A DNA stretch of 64,000 bases. Source: Escherichia coli. GTDB lineage: Bacteria; Pseudomonadota; Gammaproteobacteria; Enterobacterales; Enterobacteriaceae. Position numbers and translations under genes: made by a program. Below are positions 532 to 26,333 of the stretch, piece after piece. Numbering within the stretch: position 1 is the first letter of the stretch; every line of letters begins with the position of its first letter. The DNA is taken from NCBI RefSeq assembly GCF_044324785.1, contig NZ_CP172127.1. One strand, 5' to 3'. The notes below the pieces were generated by a model. That model had not been told where the DNA came from. It did not search any database and saw only the letters and a list, made by a program, of their open reading frames with translations.

Positions 532-945
532 ATGATACCGGATCGGGAAAGAACCACAGGTTCTCTTTTTGAGCGTATGGAAGCCTCACCGGCCAGAAAC
601 TGGCAGGGAAGCAGTATTCATGCGCTCAGGCAGTCCATTCGCCAGAACCTGCGAAACATTCTTAATACCCGGTCCGGTAGTTGCCGGGGTGCGCCTGAAC
701 TGGGCATTGATGAACCGGAAGGGGCTGAAAACTTCCGCGAATCAATGAGTCTGGCCATCGCGCAATGTATAGAACGCTATGAACCCCGGATCTCACACGC
801 TGAAGTGCAGGCAGTGGTTTCATCCGCCACCAACCCGCTGGATATGACGTTTCATATTACAGCCTGGGTGACATTTAACGAAACGCATGAAGTGCTTGAA
901 TTTGATATGGCACCGAATGGCAGCCAACATTATCGGGTGGACTGA
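532..945 (+). CDS. tssE: T6SS baseplate subunit TssE (gp25-like)
   Basis: 137 aa, typical TssE size; position between tssC and tssF. Confidence 0.85.
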   Translation: MIPDRERTTGSLFERMEASPARNWQGSSIHALRQSIRQNLRNILNTRSGSCRGAPELGIDEPEGAENFRESMSLAIAQCIERYEPRISHAEVQAVVSSATNPLDMTFHITAWVTFNETHEVLEFDMAPNGSQHYRVD

Positions 946-948
946 CAG

Positions 949-2799
949 ATGGAATTTGAAGAACGCTATTTCCGGGAAGAACTCGATTACCTGCGCCAGC
1001 TCAGCAAGCTGCTGGCAACGGAAAAACCCCATCTTGCCCGCTTCCTGGCCGAAAAAGATGCGGATCCGGATATTGAACGCCTGCTGGAAGGCGTGGCTTT
1101 TCTTACCGGCAATCTCCGCCAGAAAATTGAGGATGAATTCCCAGAACTGACGCACGGGCTTATTAAGATGCTCTGGCCTAATTACCTGCGTCCGGTTCCG
1201 GCAATGACCCTTATTGAATATACGCCGGATATGGATAAGTCTTCTGTGCCGGTGTTAATCCCCCGTAATGAGCAGCTTACAACCAACGCCGGGGAAATCA
1301 GAGTCGATGAAGTGCTGCCCTCCGATGCTAAAAAGGAGGAGCCGCCTCCCTGTACCTTCACCCTCTGCCGGGATATCTGGCTGCTGCCCGTTCGCCTGGA
1401 GCAGATTGAAAACCGCAGTACGACCCGTAATGGTGTTATCAACATCACCTTTTCGGTCGCACCGGGAACGGACTTCCGCACGCTGGATCTGAACAAACTT
1501 CGCTTCTGGCTCGGCAATGACGACAACTATACCCGTGACCAGCTTTATTTATGGTTCTGTGAATACTTGCAGGGTGCCGACCTGACTGTGGGTGAACAGC
1601 ATATTCGCCTGCCTGAGTTTATGCTGAAAGCTGTCGGTTTTGAGCCGCAGGATGCCATGCTGCCTTGGCCGAAAAACGTCCACAGCGGCTACCGGATCCT
1701 TCAGGAGTATTTCTGTTACCCGGATGCGTTTCTCTTTTTTGATCTTTGTGGTTGCCCGGCGTTGCCTGACGGATTGCAGGGTGAATCCTTTACCCTACAA
1801 CTGCGTTTTTCGCGCCCATTGCCCGTGGACATCCGGTTGCGCCGCGACTCCCTGCGCCTGTATTGCGCGCCTGCCATTAATTTATTTATCCACCATGCAG
1901 AAGCCATCACGCTGAACAACCGGCGGGCAGACTATCCGCTGGTTCCCAGCCGCCATTATCCGGAACATTACGATGTCTTTTCCGTTAACGGCGTGATAAG
2001 CCAGGTGCAGGATATGTTCAGGAAAAAAGATCTGGGGCGTCCTGTTTCGACGCAGGCCGCGCGCCAGTGGCCTGCCTTTGAAAGTTTCAGCCATCAGATG
2101 GAATACAGCCGGAAGCGGGAAGTGGTGTACTGGCATCACCGGACCAAAACATCCCTGTTCCATCGCGGCTTTGATCATACCCTTGCTTTTATACATGCTG
2201 ATGGCAGTTATCCGTCAGACGAATCGCTGCTCAGTAATGAAGTGGTTTCGGTATCGCTGACCTGTACCAACCGTGAGCTTCCGTCACAAATTCGTTCCGG
2301 CGATATCACCGGCACAACCGGTAAAAATGCGGCTGTTGCTTCATTTCGCAACATTACCCGCCCGACGCAACCGCTCTGGCCGGTCATTGATGGCAGCCTG
2401 CACTGGTCCCTGCTCTCCGCCATGAACCTGAATTATCTGTCATTACTGGATACGGACGCGCTGAAGCAGGTCATCGCCAACTTTGATCGCCACGCAATCC
2501 ATCATCCGCAGACGGCGCGGCTGTCACAACAAAAGCTGGATGCCATTGAGCGTCTGGAGACCCGCCCCGTTGATCGCCTGTTTACGGGTATTCCCGTCCG
2601 GGGGCTGGCCTCCACGCTGTATCTGCACCCGGAGCCGTTTGTCTGTGAAGGGGAAATGTATCTGCTCGGTACGGTGCTTTCGCATTTTCTGTCGCTGTAC
2701 GCCAGCGTTAACTCATTCCACATGCTGACCGTTGTGAACACAGAAAGCCAGGAGACATGGAAATGGACGGAAAGAACCGGGCAGCATCCTCTTATCTGA
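949..2799 (+). CDS. tssF: T6SS baseplate subunit TssF
   Basis: 616 aa; size and position (after tssE, before tssG) match TssF/VasA. Confidence 0.88.
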   Translation: MEFEERYFREELDYLRQLSKLLATEKPHLARFLAEKDADPDIERLLEGVAFLTGNLRQKIEDEFPELTHGLIKMLWPNYLRPVPAMTLIEYTPDMDKSSVPVLIPRNEQLTTNAGEIRVDEVLPSDAKKEEPPPCTFTLCRDIWLLPVRLEQIENRSTTRNGVINITFSVAPGTDFRTLDLNKLRFWLGNDDNYTRDQLYLWFCEYLQGADLTVGEQHIRLPEFMLKAVGFEPQDAMLPWPKNVHSGYRILQEYFCYPDAFLFFDLCGCPALPDGLQGESFTLQLRFSRPLPVDIRLRRDSLRLYCAPAINLFIHHAEAITLNNRRADYPLVPSRHYPEHYDVFSVNGVISQVQDMFRKKDLGRPVSTQAARQWPAFESFSHQMEYSRKREVVYWHHRTKTSLFHRGFDHTLAFIHADGSYPSDESLLSNEVVSVSLTCTNRELPSQIRSGDITGTTGKNAAVASFRNITRPTQPLWPVIDGSLHWSLLSAMNLNYLSLLDTDALKQVIANFDRHAIHHPQTARLSQQKLDAIERLETRPVDRLFTGIPVRGLASTLYLHPEPFVCEGEMYLLGTVLSHFLSLYASVNSFHMLTVVNTESQETWKWTERTGQHPLI

Positions 2800-3845
2800 G
2801 TCCGGGAAATCCCCCGGCAGATAAAGAGCAGAATGATCCGCTGGTACAGGTTTTTCATAACGCCTGCTCTTACAATTTTTTTGCGATGGCGGAGCTGTTG
2901 CACCGCCTGGCACAGGGTGAAAAGGGGACGCCGGAATTATCCCTGCGCGACGATCCGGCACAGGAAACCCTGCGTTTCAGCGCCGATGCCAGCCTTGCGT
3001 TTCCCCTGAGTGATATCAGTGCGCTGAAACGGGATACGTCAGGGGCATTCAGGATGACCACCACCTTTATGGGGTTACAGGGGAGCCAGTCGCCTCTCCC
3101 CGGTTATTACCTCGATCACCTGGCCTGGAAAGCGGTACATGAACAAAGTCCGGTAGGTGATTTTCTGGATATGTTCAGCCACCGCTTGACCCAGTTTGTC
3201 TGGCATATCTGGCGTAAGTACCGCTATCACATCAGTTTTCGTAACGGCGGTGTGGATGCGTTCTCGCAGCGCATGTACTCCCTTGTTGGGCTGGGCCACC
3301 GCCAGCTTCGCGATAAGCTGGCGATTAATCACAGCAAAATGCTGGCGTATTCCGGGATCCTGGCAAATCCGGGACGATCCCCGGAAATAATCTGCGGCCT
3401 GGTGTCCCACTGCTTTGATTTGTCAGACGTGACGCTGCAAAACTGGCAACGTCGCAAGGTGGATATTGAACCGGATCAGCAAAACAGTCTGGGGAGCTAT
3501 TCACTTAAAAATGGCGAAAAACTGGCGGGAAGATCGGTACTGGGCAACTTTGTTCTGGGTACACGGGTGCCCGATCTCAGCGGAAAATTCCAGCTCAGTA
3601 TTACCAGTCTGACCCGAAAACAGTTCCTCTCTTTTCTGCCGTCCGGCGAAAACTTCCTGCCACTGACGATGTTTGTGTCCTTCATCCTGCGCGATCAGCT
3701 TGCCTGGGACTTACATCTGGGGCTGGCGCCGGAGCAGGTGGGCGCAATGCGCCTGGGCGATAACAAAAGTGCGCTGCTGGGCTGGACCAGCTTCCTCGGC
3801 ACACCGGAAGAACGACCCTCAGTCACCATCAGGGTACGGTCGTAA
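2757..3845 (+). CDS. tssG: T6SS baseplate subunit TssG
   Basis: 362 aa; overlaps the tssF 3' end by 43 nt, consistent with coupling. Exact start uncertain (ATGs at 2757 and 2763). Confidence 0.82.
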   Translation: MEMDGKNRAASSYLSPGNPPADKEQNDPLVQVFHNACSYNFFAMAELLHRLAQGEKGTPELSLRDDPAQETLRFSADASLAFPLSDISALKRDTSGAFRMTTTFMGLQGSQSPLPGYYLDHLAWKAVHEQSPVGDFLDMFSHRLTQFVWHIWRKYRYHISFRNGGVDAFSQRMYSLVGLGHRQLRDKLAINHSKMLAYSGILANPGRSPEIICGLVSHCFDLSDVTLQNWQRRKVDIEPDQQNSLGSYSLKNGEKLAGRSVLGNFVLGTRVPDLSGKFQLSITSLTRKQFLSFLPSGENFLPLTMFVSFILRDQLAWDLHLGLAPEQVGAMRLGDNKSALLGWTSFLGTPEERPSVTIRVRS

Positions 3846-3869
3846 ATTATGATAATCACGGAGCAGAAT

Positions 3870-5150
3870 ATGCCGGAAGAGAAACTACAGACGCTTTCAT
3901 TGCAGGTCATTAACGGCAGTGAGCTGGAAAGCGGGCGGGCGGCGCGCTGTCTGTTCACGCAGCAGGGACATGTCGGCCATGGCCCCGAATGCCACTGGTC
4001 GGTACAGGATCGTCAGCAGAGCATTCCGGCTCAGGCTTTTACCGTTATCCTGCACGATGGCACATTTTGTCTGCGCCCGCAGACGGCACAACTGTGGCTG
4101 AACCAGGCAAAAGTCACAGCAATATCAGACCTGATACAGCTGCGCCAGGGCGATGAGATCCAGATAGGGCGTCTGATGGTGAGGGTTCATCTGAACCGGG
4201 GAGATATCCCCCATTACGATGAGGAAATGGCCACTCCCGAAACCATCGTCACCAATCGCGATATGCTCACGGATACCCTGCTGTCAACGGAGGGTGCGCC
4301 ACACTATCCGGGAATGACTCACCGGCATCAGCTTGCAGACACCGTGGTAAACGGTTTTTCTGCCGATCCACTCCAGGCACTTCAGTCCGAAAGCCTGATT
4401 ACCACGGGCGATCCGCTTTCAGGCATTGCGGCTGTCCGGCCATCGGCACCGCTGTCCGATCCGGCAAGTAATGGGGGGATCAATACTCCGTTTATGGATC
4501 TGCCGCCCATTTATGCCAGCCCCGGCGATCGTAATGATGACTTCTCTGTGGCAGAAATGGCGCAACGCCACCTTGCGGTCACCCCCTTACTGCGCGGTCT
4601 CGGCGGCTCGCTTACCGTGAGCAATTCTGACGATGCGGATGATTTTCTGGAAGAGGCCGGACGCACGTTACAGGCCGCAATAAAAGGTCTGCTCGATTTG
4701 CAGCAACAGCGTAACAGCCTCTCAGACAAACATTTGCGCCCGCTGGAAGATAACCCGCTGCGCCTGAACATGGATTACGCCACCGCGCTCGACGTGATGT
4801 TTGCCGAAGGTAAAAGTCCGGTACATCTGGCGGCTCCCGCCGCTGTCAGTGAAAGCCTGCGTAATGTCCGCCACCACGAAGAAGCTAACCGGGCAGCGAT
4901 TGTGGAGTCACTTCGTGTCCTGCTTGACGCTTTCTCACCACAAAATCTGCTGCGCCGCTTTGTGCAGTACCGCCGCAGCCATGAACTGCGCCAGCCGCTG
5001 GATGATGCCGGAGCATGGCAAATGTACAGCCATTATTACGAAGAACTGGCCTCCGATCGCCAGCAGGGGTTTGAGATGCTGTTTAACGAGGTCTACGCCC
5101 AGGTCTATGACCGGGTGCTTCGTGAAAAACAGCGGGAGCCGGAAGCATGA
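3870..5150 (+). CDS. tagH: T6SS FHA-domain protein TagH (Fha/VasC-like)
   Basis: N-terminal region has an FHA-like pattern; GGAG lies just upstream of the ATG at 3870 (longest ORF starts at 3849); C-terminal region is Ser/Pro/Asp-rich. Confidence 0.8.
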   Translation: MPEEKLQTLSLQVINGSELESGRAARCLFTQQGHVGHGPECHWSVQDRQQSIPAQAFTVILHDGTFCLRPQTAQLWLNQAKVTAISDLIQLRQGDEIQIGRLMVRVHLNRGDIPHYDEEMATPETIVTNRDMLTDTLLSTEGAPHYPGMTHRHQLADTVVNGFSADPLQALQSESLITTGDPLSGIAAVRPSAPLSDPASNGGINTPFMDLPPIYASPGDRNDDFSVAEMAQRHLAVTPLLRGLGGSLTVSNSDDADDFLEEAGRTLQAAIKGLLDLQQQRNSLSDKHLRPLEDNPLRLNMDYATALDVMFAEGKSPVHLAAPAAVSESLRNVRHHEEANRAAIVESLRVLLDAFSPQNLLRRFVQYRRSHELRQPLDDAGAWQMYSHYYEELASDRQQGFEMLFNEVYAQVYDRVLREKQREPEA

Positions 5151-7009: not shown

Positions 7010-7771
7010 ATGGATGAGGGGTCACTGTCTCTGCCACCATTTACCGGATACGACGAAAAAAGCCAGCGCGACTATCATCTCGCGCTTCGTGGCAACAGCC
7101 TGAATCCGATGATCGACGCAGCCACGCCGCTCCTCGGTATGGTGATGCGCCTTTCAACCATGAACAGCCAGACGATGCCGGAGCATCTTTTTGCTCAGGT
7201 GGTGACGGATGTTCAGGCCGTGGAGCAACTGCTTCAGGAGCAGGGCTACGAACCGGGCGTGATTATCTCGTTTCGCTACATCCTCTGCACGTTTATTGAT
7301 GAAGCGGCGCTCGGTAACGGCTGGTCGAACAAGAACGAGTGGATCAAGCAGTCATTGCTGGTCCATTTCCACAACGAAGCCTGGGGTGGCGAGAAGGTTT
7401 TCATCCTGCTGGAGCGCCTGATCCGTGAACCCAAACGTTACCAAGATCTGCTGGAATTTCTCTGGCTCTGTTTTTCTCTGGGATTTCGCGGGCGCTACAA
7501 AGTGGCAGCACAGGATCAGGGGGAATTTGAGCAGATCTACCGCCGCCTGTACCACGTCCTGCATAAACTGCGCGGCGATGCCCCTTTCCCGCTGTTACAC
7601 CAGGACAAAAAAACCCAGGGCGGGCGTTATCAGCTCATCAGTCGCCTGACCATTAAACATATTTTTTGTGGTGGCGTTGTCGTGCTGGCGTTGTTTTACC
7701 TGTTCTATCTGTTGCGGCTGGACAGCCAGACGCAGGACATCCTGCACCAGCTAAACAAATTACTTCGATAA
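7010..7771 (+). CDS. tssL: T6SS inner-membrane protein TssL (DotU family, no OmpA-like extension)
   Basis: 253 aa; C-terminal hydrophobic helix (FCGGVVVLALFYLFYLL); position between tssK and clpV. Confidence 0.85.
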   Translation: MDEGSLSLPPFTGYDEKSQRDYHLALRGNSLNPMIDAATPLLGMVMRLSTMNSQTMPEHLFAQVVTDVQAVEQLLQEQGYEPGVIISFRYILCTFIDEAALGNGWSNKNEWIKQSLLVHFHNEAWGGEKVFILLERLIREPKRYQDLLEFLWLCFSLGFRGRYKVAAQDQGEFEQIYRRLYHVLHKLRGDAPFPLLHQDKKTQGGRYQLISRLTIKHIFCGGVVVLALFYLFYLLRLDSQTQDILHQLNKLLR

Positions 7772-7779
7772 GGACGTTT

Positions 7780-20779: not shown

Positions 20780-21043
20780 AATCGGACACTCCCTCGCCTG
20801 TCATAATGATTAGAATATTTAGCACTGATAACGGACTCTAATTATATACCCCACTTAAATAATAACAAACAAAATCAACATGAAATATACATTCATTTAA
20901 TCAATATAAAATTATTCTCTAAAAATATATTTAAGTTGAATGGTTCGATATCATTATTGAATTTTAATAAATGAGACAACAAGCGAGAGTTACGCACTTA
21001 CGCCAGAGTAAAATCATTGAACAGAGAAATAGCGGGATTTAAA

Positions 21044-21080
21044 TGCAAAAAAACCGCAAAATTAAAAATCTTGCGGTTCT
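21044..21080 (-). terminator. Rho-independent terminator downstream of aspV
   Basis: Stem AACCGCAA/TTGCGGTT followed by a T-run on the minus strand. Confidence 0.6.
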
Positions 21081-21105
21081 CTGAACTCATTTTCATGAGT
21101 GAATT

Positions 21106-21182
21106 TGGCGGAACGGACGGGACTCGAACCCGCGACCCCCTGCGTGACAGGCAGGTATTCTAACCGACTGAACTACCGCTCC
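21106..21182 (-). tRNA. aspV: tRNA-Asp (GUC)
   Basis: Reverse complement matches the canonical E. coli tRNA-Asp over 77 nt (GGAGCGGTAGTTCAGTCGGTTAGAATACCTGCCTGTCACGCAGGGGGTCGCGGGTTCGAGTCCCGTCCGTTCCGCCA). Confidence 0.95.
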
Positions 21183-21314
21183 GCGTTGTGTTCCGTTGGG
21201 AACGAGGCGAATATTACGGATTGCCTCACCCTTCGTCAACGGTTTTTCTCATCTTTTGAATCGTTTGCTGCAAAAATCGCCCAAGTCGCTATTTTTAGCG
21301 CCTTTTACAGGTAT

Positions 21315-22046
21315 TTATGCCCGCCAGAGACAGCTTCCGCCCTTTTTCTGCACCAGATCGAGACGGGCTTCATGTGCTGCAAGCTCTTCATCTGTCGCAA
21401 AAACAACGCGTAACTTACTTGCCTGACGCACAATGCGCTGAATTGTTGTTTCATCTTGTTGCTGTTGCGTCTCTCCTTCCATCGCAAAAGCCATCGACGT
21501 TTGCCCACCAGTCATCGCCAGATAAACTTCCGCAAGGATCTGGGCATCGAGTAATGCCCCGTGCAACGTTCGTTTACTGTTATCTATTTCGTAGCGGGCA
21601 CATAACGCATCGAGGCTGTTGCGCTTACCGGGAAACATTTTCCTCGCCACCGCAAGGCTATCGGTGACCTTACAGAAGGTATTGGTCTTCGGAATATCGC
21701 GCTTAAGCAACGAAAACTCGTAGTCCATAAAGCCGATATCGAACGCTGCGTTATGGATAACGAGCTCCGCGCCGCGGATATAGTCCATGAACTCATCGGC
21801 AACCTCGGCAAACGTGGGCTTATCGAGCAAAAACTCATCGGCAATACCATGTACGCCAAAGGCTTCCGGATCCACCAGCCGATCGGGTTTGAGATAAACA
21901 TGGAAGTTATTGCCCGTCAGACGACGGTTCACCACCTCAACGGCACCAATCTCAATGATCTTGTGGCCTTCATAGTGCGCACCAATCTGGTTCATACCGG
22001 TAGTTTCGGTATCGAGAACGATCTGGCGTGTAATTGCAGTGCTCAT
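21315..22046 (-). CDS. dnaQ: DNA polymerase III epsilon subunit (3'-5' proofreading exonuclease)
   Basis: [20 protein letters not shown]… N-terminus; 243 aa; divergent from rnhA. Confidence 0.95.
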
Positions 22047-22110
22047 AGCGGTCATTTATGTCAGACTTGTCGTTTTACAGTTCGATTCAATTACAGGAAG
22101 TCTACCAGAG

Positions 22111-25562: not shown

Positions 25563-26333
25563 TTATGCTGCTTTATGTGCTTCTACCATGATGATATCAC
25601 TGGTGAAAGAGCCATCATTCTGCAAGGCAAAATACGTTTTCACCTCTGTCGATGCGCTCTGTTGGTAAATGCGAATAGCGTCTACTAACGCTTCTGGCGT
25701 ACGCATTCTCGCGACCCATGAAGAAAATTCCAGCGGTAACTTATCTGTAATTAAATTATCAACTACCAGATTGGCTTCATTGATTAACGTCAACCACTCA
25801 CCGCTGGCGTAGTTTCGTACGTGAGAGGTATCGCGTAATGCTTCTACCGTCTGTAACCAGATGTCGCGCACTGGGTGACCCGGAGACATTACGTCCATCA
25901 CAATCAGCCTACCGCCAGGTTTCAATATCCTATTCACTTCTCGCAGTGCTGCACCAACATCATGCCAGTGATGGGCAGAATAACGGCTGATAACAATATC
26001 AAATGCGTTATCGGCAAATGGCAGACTTTCGGCATAACCCTGGCGGGTGGTGATATTTTTCAGTTGCCGGACTTCGGCAGCTTGTGCCACGACATCCAGC
26101 ATTTGGGCAGATAAGTCATACGCCACCACCGTGCTCACGTTTTGCGCAGCGACAAAGCTGGCATGCCCTGCTCCGCAGCCCATATCAAGTACACTTGCAT
26201 CAGGATAATCAGCCAGACACACCGCCAGGCGCTGTAAATCTCGTCCGGCTGCATGTACGGTACTGGTCAGATATTCGCTGGCTTGAGAGCTAAACTGCTT
26301 TTCTACATGGTCATGGTGGGATTGTATTGTCAT
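25563..26333 (-). CDS. yafE: Class I SAM-dependent methyltransferase YafE
   Basis: 256 aa; methyltransferase motif I (VLDMGCGAGH). Confidence 0.85.
   Translation of the reverse strand: MTIQSHHDHVEKQFSSQASEYLTSTVHAAGRDLQRLAVCLADYPDASVLDMGCGAGHASFVAAQNVSTVVAYDLSAQMLDVVAQAAEVRQLKNITTRQGYAESLPFADNAFDIVISRYSAHHWHDVGAALREVNRILKPGGRLIVMDVMSPGHPVRDIWLQTVEALRDTSHVRNYASGEWLTLINEANLVVDNLITDKLPLEFSSWVARMRTPEALVDAIRIYQQSASTEVKTYFALQNDGSFTSDIIMVEAHKAA

What the first reader, a model, noticed from the sequence alone, without database searches (positions are those of the whole stretch)
2757..2799. 43-nt overlap between tssF and tssG in different frames
The longest tssG ORF begins 43 nt before the tssF stop. 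Either the genes truly overlap (translational coupling) or tssG starts at a downstream non-ATG codon. The correct N-terminus matters for structural work on the baseplate.
Basis: seen in the sequence. Interest (0 to 1): 0.2.

Follow-up and report, generated by a model that had tools for sequence, protein, structure and literature searches.

The report
Conserved tssF–tssG gene overlap
Two neighbouring genes of an E. coli type VI secretion baseplate really do overlap, most likely by 37 bases rather than 43, and this arrangement is ordinary, already annotated and conserved across many bacteria.

Summary
tssF (949..2799) and the longest tssG ORF (2757..3845) overlap by 43 nt, with tssG in the -1 frame.

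The most likely tssG start is the second ATG, at 2763, which gives a 37-nt overlap:
- RefSeq uses this start.
- An AGGAG sits 8 nt upstream of it, but only 2 nt upstream of ATG 2757.
- All 80 orthologous loci (TssG 49-99% identical) have an ATG at this position.
- 11 of 16 very distant T6SS loci have a start codon there (10 ATG, 1 GTG).

This ATG is the wobble A of one TssF codon plus the TG of an invariant Trp codon. That wobble A never changed on a 79-taxon tree, although its codon encodes E, Q, K, T or R. Neighbouring wobble sites changed a median of 9.5 times. The start codon itself is therefore under selection.

A start downstream of 2799 is very unlikely. The next canonical start (M44, 2886) lies inside the conserved TssG domain and has no Shine-Dalgarno sequence.

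I found no conserved RNA structure and no frameshift site.

Overlapping tssF/tssG with probable translational coupling was already described in Serratia in 2014. The finding is real but ordinary. The only modest new detail is how deeply the Trp-anchored start is conserved.

The parts
949..2799 (+). tssF coding sequence (616 aa), stop TGA at 2797-2799
   Evidence: ORF list; TIGR03359 E=1e-168, aligned to the last residue; RefSeq annotation of the identical stretch in strain N3.
2750..2754 (+). Shine-Dalgarno-like AGGAG embedded in TssF codons Q601-E602 (CAG GAG)
   Evidence: Sequence. It lies 8 nt from ATG 2763 and 2 nt from ATG 2757. Anti-SD duplex energy is -7.4 kcal/mol for 2763 and -3.4 for 2757. 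The hexamer CAGGAG, CAGGAA or AAGGAG is present in 75 of 79 orthologous loci, and its wobble G changed only twice on the tree.
2757..2759 (+). Upstream in-frame ATG, the start of the longest tssG ORF (43-nt overlap); probably not the main start
   Evidence: It is present only in the closest clade, where TssF reads W-K-W or W-T-W (window plus 8 relatives; L001-L005). It is absent from the other loci of the 80-locus set. The SD is only 2 nt upstream.
2763..2765 (+). Most likely tssG start codon: the wobble A of TssF K605 plus the TG of W606
   Evidence: RefSeq start. All full-length database homologues start here, as M-x-G-K/Q-N-R. An ATG is present at this position in 80 of 80 orthologous loci. 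It underwent 0 changes on the 79-taxon tree, against a median of 9.5 for the other tssF wobble sites.
2763..2799 (+). 37-nt dual-coding overlap: TssF residues W606-I616 plus the stop, and TssG residues 1-12
   Evidence: Nucleotide variation follows tssF codon periodicity (entropy 0.66, 0.46 and 1.12 bits at tssF positions 1, 2 and 3). TssF W, G and Q are invariant.
2763..3845 (+). tssG coding sequence as best supported (360 aa)
   Evidence: TIGR03347 E=1.4e-104.
2800..2861 (+). Variable-length linker of TssG between the overlap-encoded peptide and the conserved domain
   Evidence: Its length and sequence vary among homologues. TIGR03347 begins at nt 2862. AlphaFold pLDDT is below 50 for residues 1-24 (the model is weak overall).

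Best explanation
tssG is translated from AUG 2763, inside the last 37 nt of tssF, on the same mRNA. Its ribosome-binding site is built into the TssF coding sequence. The AGGAG comes from the TssF Q601-E602 codons. The AUG comes from the wobble A of the K605 codon plus the TG of the invariant W606 codon. The first 12 TssG residues are therefore encoded in the -1 frame over the conserved TssF C-terminus and are largely passengers of that constraint. The arrangement most plausibly couples TssG synthesis to TssF synthesis. Ribosomes either load at the internal SD on mRNA kept open by tssF translation, or re-initiate about 34 nt upstream after terminating at the tssF stop. Either way the two mutually stabilising subunits of the (TssF)2-TssG wedge core would be made together. 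What is shown: the overlap, the SD and its spacing, and conservation and selection of the start codon. What is inferred: the coupling, its mechanism and any role in stoichiometry.
For: 1. RefSeq annotates tssG from the position equal to window 2763, giving a 37-nt overlap.
2. SD geometry favours 2763: AGGAG lies 8 nt before 2763 and 2 nt before 2757. Duplex energy is -7.4 against -3.4 kcal/mol, and -7.4 is as strong as any other gene start in the cluster.
3. All 80 loci from Enterobacterales and Pasteurellaceae carry an ATG anchored on the same Trp codon: 68 with a 37-nt overlap, including Y. pestis L043, and 12 with a 34-nt overlap where TssF is one codon shorter.
4. On a tree of 79 loci the wobble A of that ATG changed 0 times, although its codon is GAA, CAA, AAA, ACA or CGA. 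Other tssF wobble sites changed a median of 9.5 times, and the SD wobble G changed twice.
5. In 11 of 16 distant T6SS loci from Alpha-, Beta- and Gammaproteobacteria (TssG about 23-43% identical) a start codon lies at the same -34 position. The PDB reference EAEC TssG (6GIY chain C) also begins inside tssF, judged from a Sci-1-like locus that aligns with it 1:1.
6. No sigma-70-like promoter was found in 2400-3100, which fits co-transcription.
7. Literature: Serratia tssF and tssG overlap, with 'likely translational coupling' (PMC4072051). TssF and TssG stabilise each other, and a TssF-TssG fusion is functional (PMC4604203). TssF:TssG stoichiometry is 2:1 (PMC6300606).
Against: There is no direct evidence (N-terminal peptide or ribosome profiling) for which ATG is used in this locus. 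In the closest clade both ATGs are kept in 9 of 9 sequences, so 2757 cannot be excluded and both may be used. No conserved RNA structure masks the tssG ribosome-binding site (0 predicted pairs; window fold z=-0.78), so the classical unmasking form of coupling has no support. 34 nt is a long distance for termination-reinitiation. Five of 16 distant loci manage without this start: four use a 4-nt ATGA/GTGA overlap and one has a 25-nt overlap. The 37-nt geometry is therefore not essential to T6SS.
Confidence: 0.8

Rival explanations
1. tssG starts at the first ATG (2757), as in the longest ORF, giving the 43-nt overlap and an MEMDGKNR N-terminus. Alternatively both ATGs are used.
For: The ATG is in frame and is the first in the open frame. 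Within the closest clade it is retained in 9 of 9 sequences even though the Thr/Ser codon carrying its A is four-fold degenerate. The EAEC reference protein is also annotated from an ATG upstream of the Trp-anchored codon.
Against: AGGAG is only 2 nt upstream, with -3.4 kcal/mol at allowed spacings. The ATG is absent outside the closest clade, where other clades with Trp at that position have C-TGG. None of the 120 best database homologues starts there. RefSeq does not use it. Nine closely related sequences are too few to separate selection from shared ancestry.
Confidence: 0.13
2. tssG starts downstream of the tssF stop, at a non-ATG codon or at M44 (2886), so the genes do not overlap.
For: Large annotated overlaps are often start-codon mispredictions (general knowledge). 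Some records for relatives pick downstream starts: Salinivibrio L082 and Sinorhizobium L090.
Against: In the tssG frame, 2766-2885 contains only two CTG codons and no ATG, GTG or TTG. M44 lies inside the conserved domain, since TIGR03347 aligns from residue 36 and the invariant Phe is upstream of M44, and it has no SD (+2.2 kcal/mol). The upstream ATG and SD show selection at TssF-synonymous sites. L082 and L090 also carry the conserved -34 ATG.
Confidence: 0.03
3. The overlap serves a programmed -1 ribosomal frameshift that produces a TssF-TssG fusion protein, like the natural fusion gene reported in UPEC CFT073.
For: tssG is in the -1 frame of tssF, and an SD-like element lies upstream as in dnaX-type frameshifting (general knowledge). 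A fusion gene exists in CFT073, and an engineered F-G fusion is functional (PMC4604203).
Against: There is no X XXY YYZ slippery heptamer in the tssF frame in 2700-2799. There is no conserved downstream structure. The conserved ATG with its well-spaced SD is fully explained by ordinary initiation.
Confidence: 0.01

Closest known systems
Serratia marcescens Db10 tssF/tssG (SMA2272/SMA2273), English et al. 2014, Biochem J (PMC4072051)
   Same: tssF and tssG are described as overlapping genes, with the tssG ribosome-binding site inside tssF and 'likely translational coupling'. The proteins need each other for stability.
   Different: It is a different T6SS cluster and species. I could not read the overlap length from the figure. 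Coupling was not demonstrated experimentally there either.
EAEC Sci-1 TssF/TssG, the structural reference (PDB 6GIY, 6GJ1, 6N38)
   Same: Same protein families and the same wedge core (TssF2-TssG1). The deposited TssG (366 aa, MHPVERKSQ...) aligns 1:1 with a Sci-1-like plasmid tssG that starts 43 nt before the tssF stop, and a GTG sits at the Trp-anchored -34 position.
   Different: TssG is only about 30% identical to the window protein. The annotated start there is an ATG 9 nt upstream of the Trp-anchored codon, which is GTG rather than ATG. TssG residues 1-121 are not modelled in 6N38.
Classical translationally coupled pairs with 1- or 4-nt overlaps (ATGA, TGATG; e.g. trpE-trpD, trpB-trpA; general knowledge)
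   Same: Same-operon neighbours encoding subunits of one complex, with the downstream start inside or at the end of the upstream gene. Four distant T6SS loci use exactly this ATGA/GTGA form for tssF-tssG, and tagH-tssJ in this window does too.
   Different: Here the start lies 34 nt before the stop, so simple termination-reinitiation at an adjacent codon does not apply. The start has its own strong SD.
UPEC CFT073 tssF'-'tssG fusion gene (Brunet et al. 2015, PMC4604203)
   Same: It shows that the TssF C-terminus and the TssG N-terminus can be joined covalently and that an engineered fusion works. This fits the two ends being made and assembled together.
   Different: It is a single fused ORF, not two overlapping ORFs, and it belongs to the Sci-1-like subfamily.

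Membership tests
TssG (TIGR03347 / PF06996) | Full-length match to the family profile above the curated cut-off | tested here: met
   349.5 bits against a cut-off of 143.3; profile positions 2-300 of 300 aligned to residues 36-348. PDB TssG chains hit at E=1e-25.
TssF (TIGR03359 / PF05947) | Full-length match to the family profile above the curated cut-off | tested here: met
   563 bits against a cut-off of 260.3; profile positions 3-600 of 600 aligned to residues 6-616, that is, to the last residue.
T6SS core gene cluster | tssF and tssG adjacent on the same strand among other core tss genes | tested here: met
   RefSeq context is tssB-tssC-tssE-tssF-tssG-tagH-tssJ-tssK-tssL-tssH-vasI-tssA-tssM.
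Translationally coupled overlapping gene pair | Downstream start codon and SD lie inside the 3' end of the upstream gene, on the same transcript | tested here: met
   AGGAG at 2750-2754 and ATG at 2763, both inside tssF. No promoter-like site in 2400-3100.
Translationally coupled overlapping gene pair | The start/SD arrangement is conserved beyond what the upstream protein's coding constraint requires | tested here: met
   0 changes at the wobble A of the ATG and 2 at the SD wobble G, against a median of 9.5 at other tssF wobble sites on 79 loci.
Translationally coupled overlapping gene pair | Downstream translation depends on translation of the upstream gene | not testable with these tools
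   This needs reporter fusions with premature stops in tssF.
Translationally coupled overlapping gene pair | RNA structure that masks the downstream ribosome-binding site and is opened by upstream ribosomes (one common mechanism, not obligatory) | tested here: not met
   RNAalifold on 15 diverse junctions predicted 0 pairs. The window fold has z=-0.78.
Programmed -1 ribosomal frameshift site | Slippery heptamer X XXY YYZ in the upstream frame within the overlap | tested here: not met
   None in 2700-2799.

The most novel reading that the evidence does not exclude
The start codon and SD hard-wired into the conserved TssF C-terminal motif ([QG]-E-x-x-x-W, then 10 residues, then stop) may be an ancient, selected device shared by T6SS of Alpha-, Beta- and Gammaproteobacteria. 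It would place an initiating ribosome about one ribosome footprint behind the ribosome terminating tssF. That could tune TssG output to the 2:1 TssF:TssG ratio of the wedge, or promote co-translational assembly of two subunits that are unstable alone. The 4-nt ATGA overlap would be the alternative state in lineages that lost the A before TGG.
Probability: 0.3. Interest if true: 0.4.

Novelty: already known. Interest (0 to 1): 0.18.

Why it matters
For annotation and construct design, the evidence favours TssG starting at MDGKNR (2763, 360 aa). It argues against trimming tssG to remove the overlap. Deletions or tags at the 3' end of tssF will hit the tssG ribosome-binding site and start, so tssF mutants must spare roughly the last 50 nt (2749-2799) to avoid polar loss of TssG. 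The overlap-encoded TssG N-terminus is probably dispensable for the wedge structure. Residues 1-63 are not needed in the EAEC system, and lineages with a 4-nt overlap lack those residues. The deep conservation of the Trp-anchored start is a tidy example of a start codon selected at a synonymous site of another gene, but it does not change the understanding of T6SS.

Tried and rejected
1. RNA structure masking the tssG ribosome-binding site: the single-sequence fold was not better than shuffles, and the alignment fold of 15 junctions gave no pairs. Rejected.
2. Programmed -1 frameshift giving a fusion protein: no slippery heptamer. Rejected.
3. Internal promoter for tssG: no sigma-70-like site in 2400-3100. 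One terminator-like site on the minus strand is at chance level.
4. Downstream start: no canonical start codon before M44, which lies inside the conserved domain and has no SD.
5. TssG N-terminal motif as an independently selected peptide: mostly rejected. Variation follows the tssF frame, and TssG position 6 varies R/G/W exactly as the wobble of the overlapping TssF codon dictates. The hydrophobic residue at position 12 is forced by the tssF stop codon. Mild excess conservation of G3 and D11 remains unexplained.
6. AlphaFold monomer of TssG: low confidence overall (mean pLDDT 58.5). It was used only as weak support that residues 1-24 are unstructured. No fold search was run.
7. RfaH ops element at the junction, reported between tssF and tssG in Photorhabdus (bioRxiv 10.1101/2025.02.08.637259): none near 2757-2799.
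8. One literature search failed on term length. I found no paper describing the exact 37-nt conservation. The library is incomplete, so this is not proof of novelty.

Full report
**Observation**
The window carries an E. coli type VI secretion cluster. A 1-kb stretch around the finding is 100% identical to strain N3, and more than 2,000 complete E. coli genomes hold it at 95% identity or more. ORF 949..2799 is TssF (616 aa; TIGR03359, E=1e-168, aligned to its last residue). ORF 2757..3845 is TssG (362 aa; TIGR03347, E=1.4e-104, aligned from residue 36). The two ORFs share 2757..2799, which is 43 nt. tssG lies in the -1 frame of tssF.

**Which start codon**
The junction reads CAG GAG ACA TGG AAA TGG in the tssF frame (Q601 E602 T603 W604 K605 W606). 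It contains two in-frame ATGs for tssG, at 2757 and 2763.
- RefSeq annotates tssG from the second ATG, giving 360 aa, MDGKNR..., and a 37-nt overlap.
- AGGAG (2750-2754) lies 8 nt before ATG 2763 but only 2 nt before ATG 2757. The best anti-SD duplex at allowed spacings is -7.4 kcal/mol for 2763 and -3.4 for 2757. Other gene starts in the cluster range from -5.8 to -7.7.
- Between 2766 and 2885 the tssG frame has no ATG, GTG or TTG, only two CTG codons.
- The next ATG (M44, 2886) lies inside the conserved domain, downstream of an invariant Phe, and has no SD.
- None of the 120 best database homologues begins with the longer form. All full-length ones begin M-x-G-[KQ]-N-R or a variant of it.

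**Conservation in orthologues**
I fetched 80 loci from one genome per species, covering Enterobacterales and Pasteurellaceae, with TssG 49-99% identical.
- Every locus has an ATG anchored on the same Trp codon (xxA TGG).
- In 68 loci, including Y. pestis L043, it lies 34 nt before the tssF stop, giving a 37-nt overlap. In 12 loci it lies 31 nt before the stop, because TssF is one codon shorter after the Trp.
- The start is therefore tied to the Trp codon rather than to a fixed distance from the stop.
- A purine-rich hexamer (CAGGAG, CAGGAA or AAGGAG) sits at -14..-9 in 75 of 79 loci.
- The upstream ATG (equivalent to 2757) occurs only in the closest clade. There both ATGs are kept in 9 of 9 sequences. 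That is too few, and too closely related, to show selection.

**Is the start itself selected?**
Through the overlap, nucleotide variability keeps the tssF codon periodicity. Mean entropy is 0.66, 0.46 and 1.12 bits at tssF positions 1, 2 and 3. For tssG this means its first codon position varies most and its third varies least. TssF W, G and Q are invariant, and H and L nearly so. TssG residues 2-12 are more variable (mean 1.59 bits against 1.04). They vary as expected for a passenger frame. Position 6 is R, G or W, which are the NGG codons set by a TssF wobble base. Position 12 is V, L, I or M, forced by the stop codon.

Against this background one tssF wobble site stands out. The A of the conserved ATG changed 0 times on a neighbour-joining tree of 79 loci, although its codon is GAA, CAA, AAA, ACA or CGA. 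Other tssF wobble sites nearby changed a median of 9.5 times (range 2-20, leaving aside the Trp codon). The SD wobble G changed twice. With a mean of about 9.8 changes, a rough Poisson estimate for zero changes is below 1e-4. The start codon and SD are thus maintained by selection independent of the TssF protein sequence.

**Distant systems**
A tblastn search of TssG against plasmid and chromid records gave 16 diverse T6SS loci, with TssG about 23-43% identical.
- Eleven have a start codon at the same -34 position: Salinivibrio, Skermanella, Parasedimentitalea, Klebsiella, Rhizobium, a Rahnella plasmid, Sinorhizobium, Ralstonia, Paraburkholderia, Pantoea, and an Enterobacter plasmid where it is GTG.
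- Four have a 4-nt ATGA/GTGA overlap: Vibrio, a second E. coli system, Campylobacter and Phyllobacterium.
- One (Caballeronia) has a 25-nt overlap.
- All use the same relative frame. The 4-nt lineages simply lack the first 11 TssG residues.
- The Enterobacter plasmid protein aligns 1:1 with PDB 6GIY chain C (EAEC TssG, MHPVERKSQ...) when read from an ATG 43 nt before the tssF stop. The structural reference protein therefore also starts inside tssF.

**Mechanism**
Shown: an SD and an AUG embedded in tssF with good spacing and under selection, and no promoter-like site nearby.

Inferred: translational coupling. The literature supports the idea but does not prove it.
- Serratia tssF and tssG were described as overlapping with 'likely translational coupling' (PMC4072051).
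- TssF and TssG are unstable alone and stabilise each other. A TssF-TssG fusion is functional, and a natural fusion gene is reported in CFT073 (PMC4604203).
- The wedge core is (TssF)2-TssG (PMC6300606).

I found no conserved RNA structure that would mask the ribosome-binding site. The likelier routes are therefore direct SD-driven loading on mRNA kept unfolded by tssF translation, or backward re-initiation after termination. The second route is known for distances of this order from classical phage work (my recollection, not checked here). A frameshift-fusion model is rejected because there is no slippery site.

**Relevance for structural work**
In EAEC, TssG residues 64-366 suffice for TssK-F-G complex formation. 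The 6N38 model starts at residue 122, while TssF is modelled to its last residue. An AlphaFold monomer of the window protein has pLDDT below 50 for residues 1-24, though the model is poor overall. The exact N-terminus matters mainly for genetics, because the tssG start and SD lie inside tssF.

**Verdict**
The overlap is real, but most likely 37 nt rather than 43. A downstream start is very unlikely. The arrangement is already annotated in RefSeq and was described in principle in 2014, so the finding is ordinary. The depth of conservation of the Trp-anchored start, and its selection at a TssF-synonymous site, is a modest addition that I did not find described in the searchable literature.

Noticed in passing
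window 3849..5150 (tagH): The longest tagH ORF starts at ATG 3849, but RefSeq starts it at 3870, where the SD is better (-5.8 against -3.9 kcal/mol). A 2026 paper reports a conserved internal start producing two Fha/TagH isoforms in Vibrio (PMC13389060). I did not check whether this E. coli tagH has one.
   Followed up: partly
window 7666..10563 (tssH/clpV): The longest tssH ORF starts at TTG 7666 and would overlap tssL (7010..7771) by 106 nt. RefSeq starts tssH at about 7780 with no overlap. This is a probable example of a longest ORF overshooting the true start.
   Followed up: no
window 5147..5150: tagH (ends 5150) and tssJ (starts 5147) overlap by 4 nt, the classical ATGA coupling junction. 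tssH and vasI (10560..10563) do the same.
   Followed up: no
L043 1..2917 (Yersinia pestis NCTC5923): The tssF-tssG junction is intact (ATG 34 nt before the stop), but only a 290-codon 3' fragment of tssF remains. Two minus-strand ORFs (769..1554 and 1608..2285) occupy the upstream part, which suggests an insertion has disrupted tssF.
   Followed up: partly
L086 715..2468 (Klebsiella pneumoniae CP125156) and L088 655..2540 (Rahnella aquatilis plasmid): tssF is split into two ORFs in both records, by frameshift or sequencing error, while the 37-nt junction with tssG is intact. CP125156 is a 5.37-Mb record labelled as a plasmid, so it is probably a chromosome.
   Followed up: partly
L082 2471 (Salinivibrio) and L090 2516 (Sinorhizobium): These records annotate tssG from a downstream start (a 23-nt gap and a 1-nt overlap respectively), although the conserved ATG 34 nt before the tssF stop is present in both (MADESR..., MAHNAW...). 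Start annotation across records is therefore inconsistent.
   Followed up: yes
L093 2456..2470 (Sci-1-like Enterobacter plasmid; equivalent to EAEC TssG in PDB 6GIY): The annotated ATG (MHPVER...) has its AGGA only 2 nt upstream, whereas the Trp-anchored GTG three codons downstream is 11 nt from it. This is the same ambiguity as in the window, so the reference EAEC TssG may be numbered 3 residues too long.
   Followed up: partly
window 11242..12723 and 16187..17626: In strain N3, RefSeq flags tssA and the VasL-domain gene as frameshifted pseudogenes. The window has long uninterrupted ORFs at the corresponding places, so the window is not identical to N3 there.
   Followed up: partly
window 25905..25916 (- strand): There is an exact match to the RfaH ops consensus GGCGGTAGnnTG (GGCGGTAGGCTG). 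By colinearity with N3 it lies well outside the T6SS cluster, apparently inside a methyltransferase gene. The count of near-matches in the window is at chance level (6 against 3.6 expected).
   Followed up: no
window about 21000-22100 (by colinearity with N3, L103 11760..12700): The T6SS island ends next to a tRNA-Asp gene followed by dnaQ-rnhA. This is a tRNA-adjacent island position.
   Followed up: no
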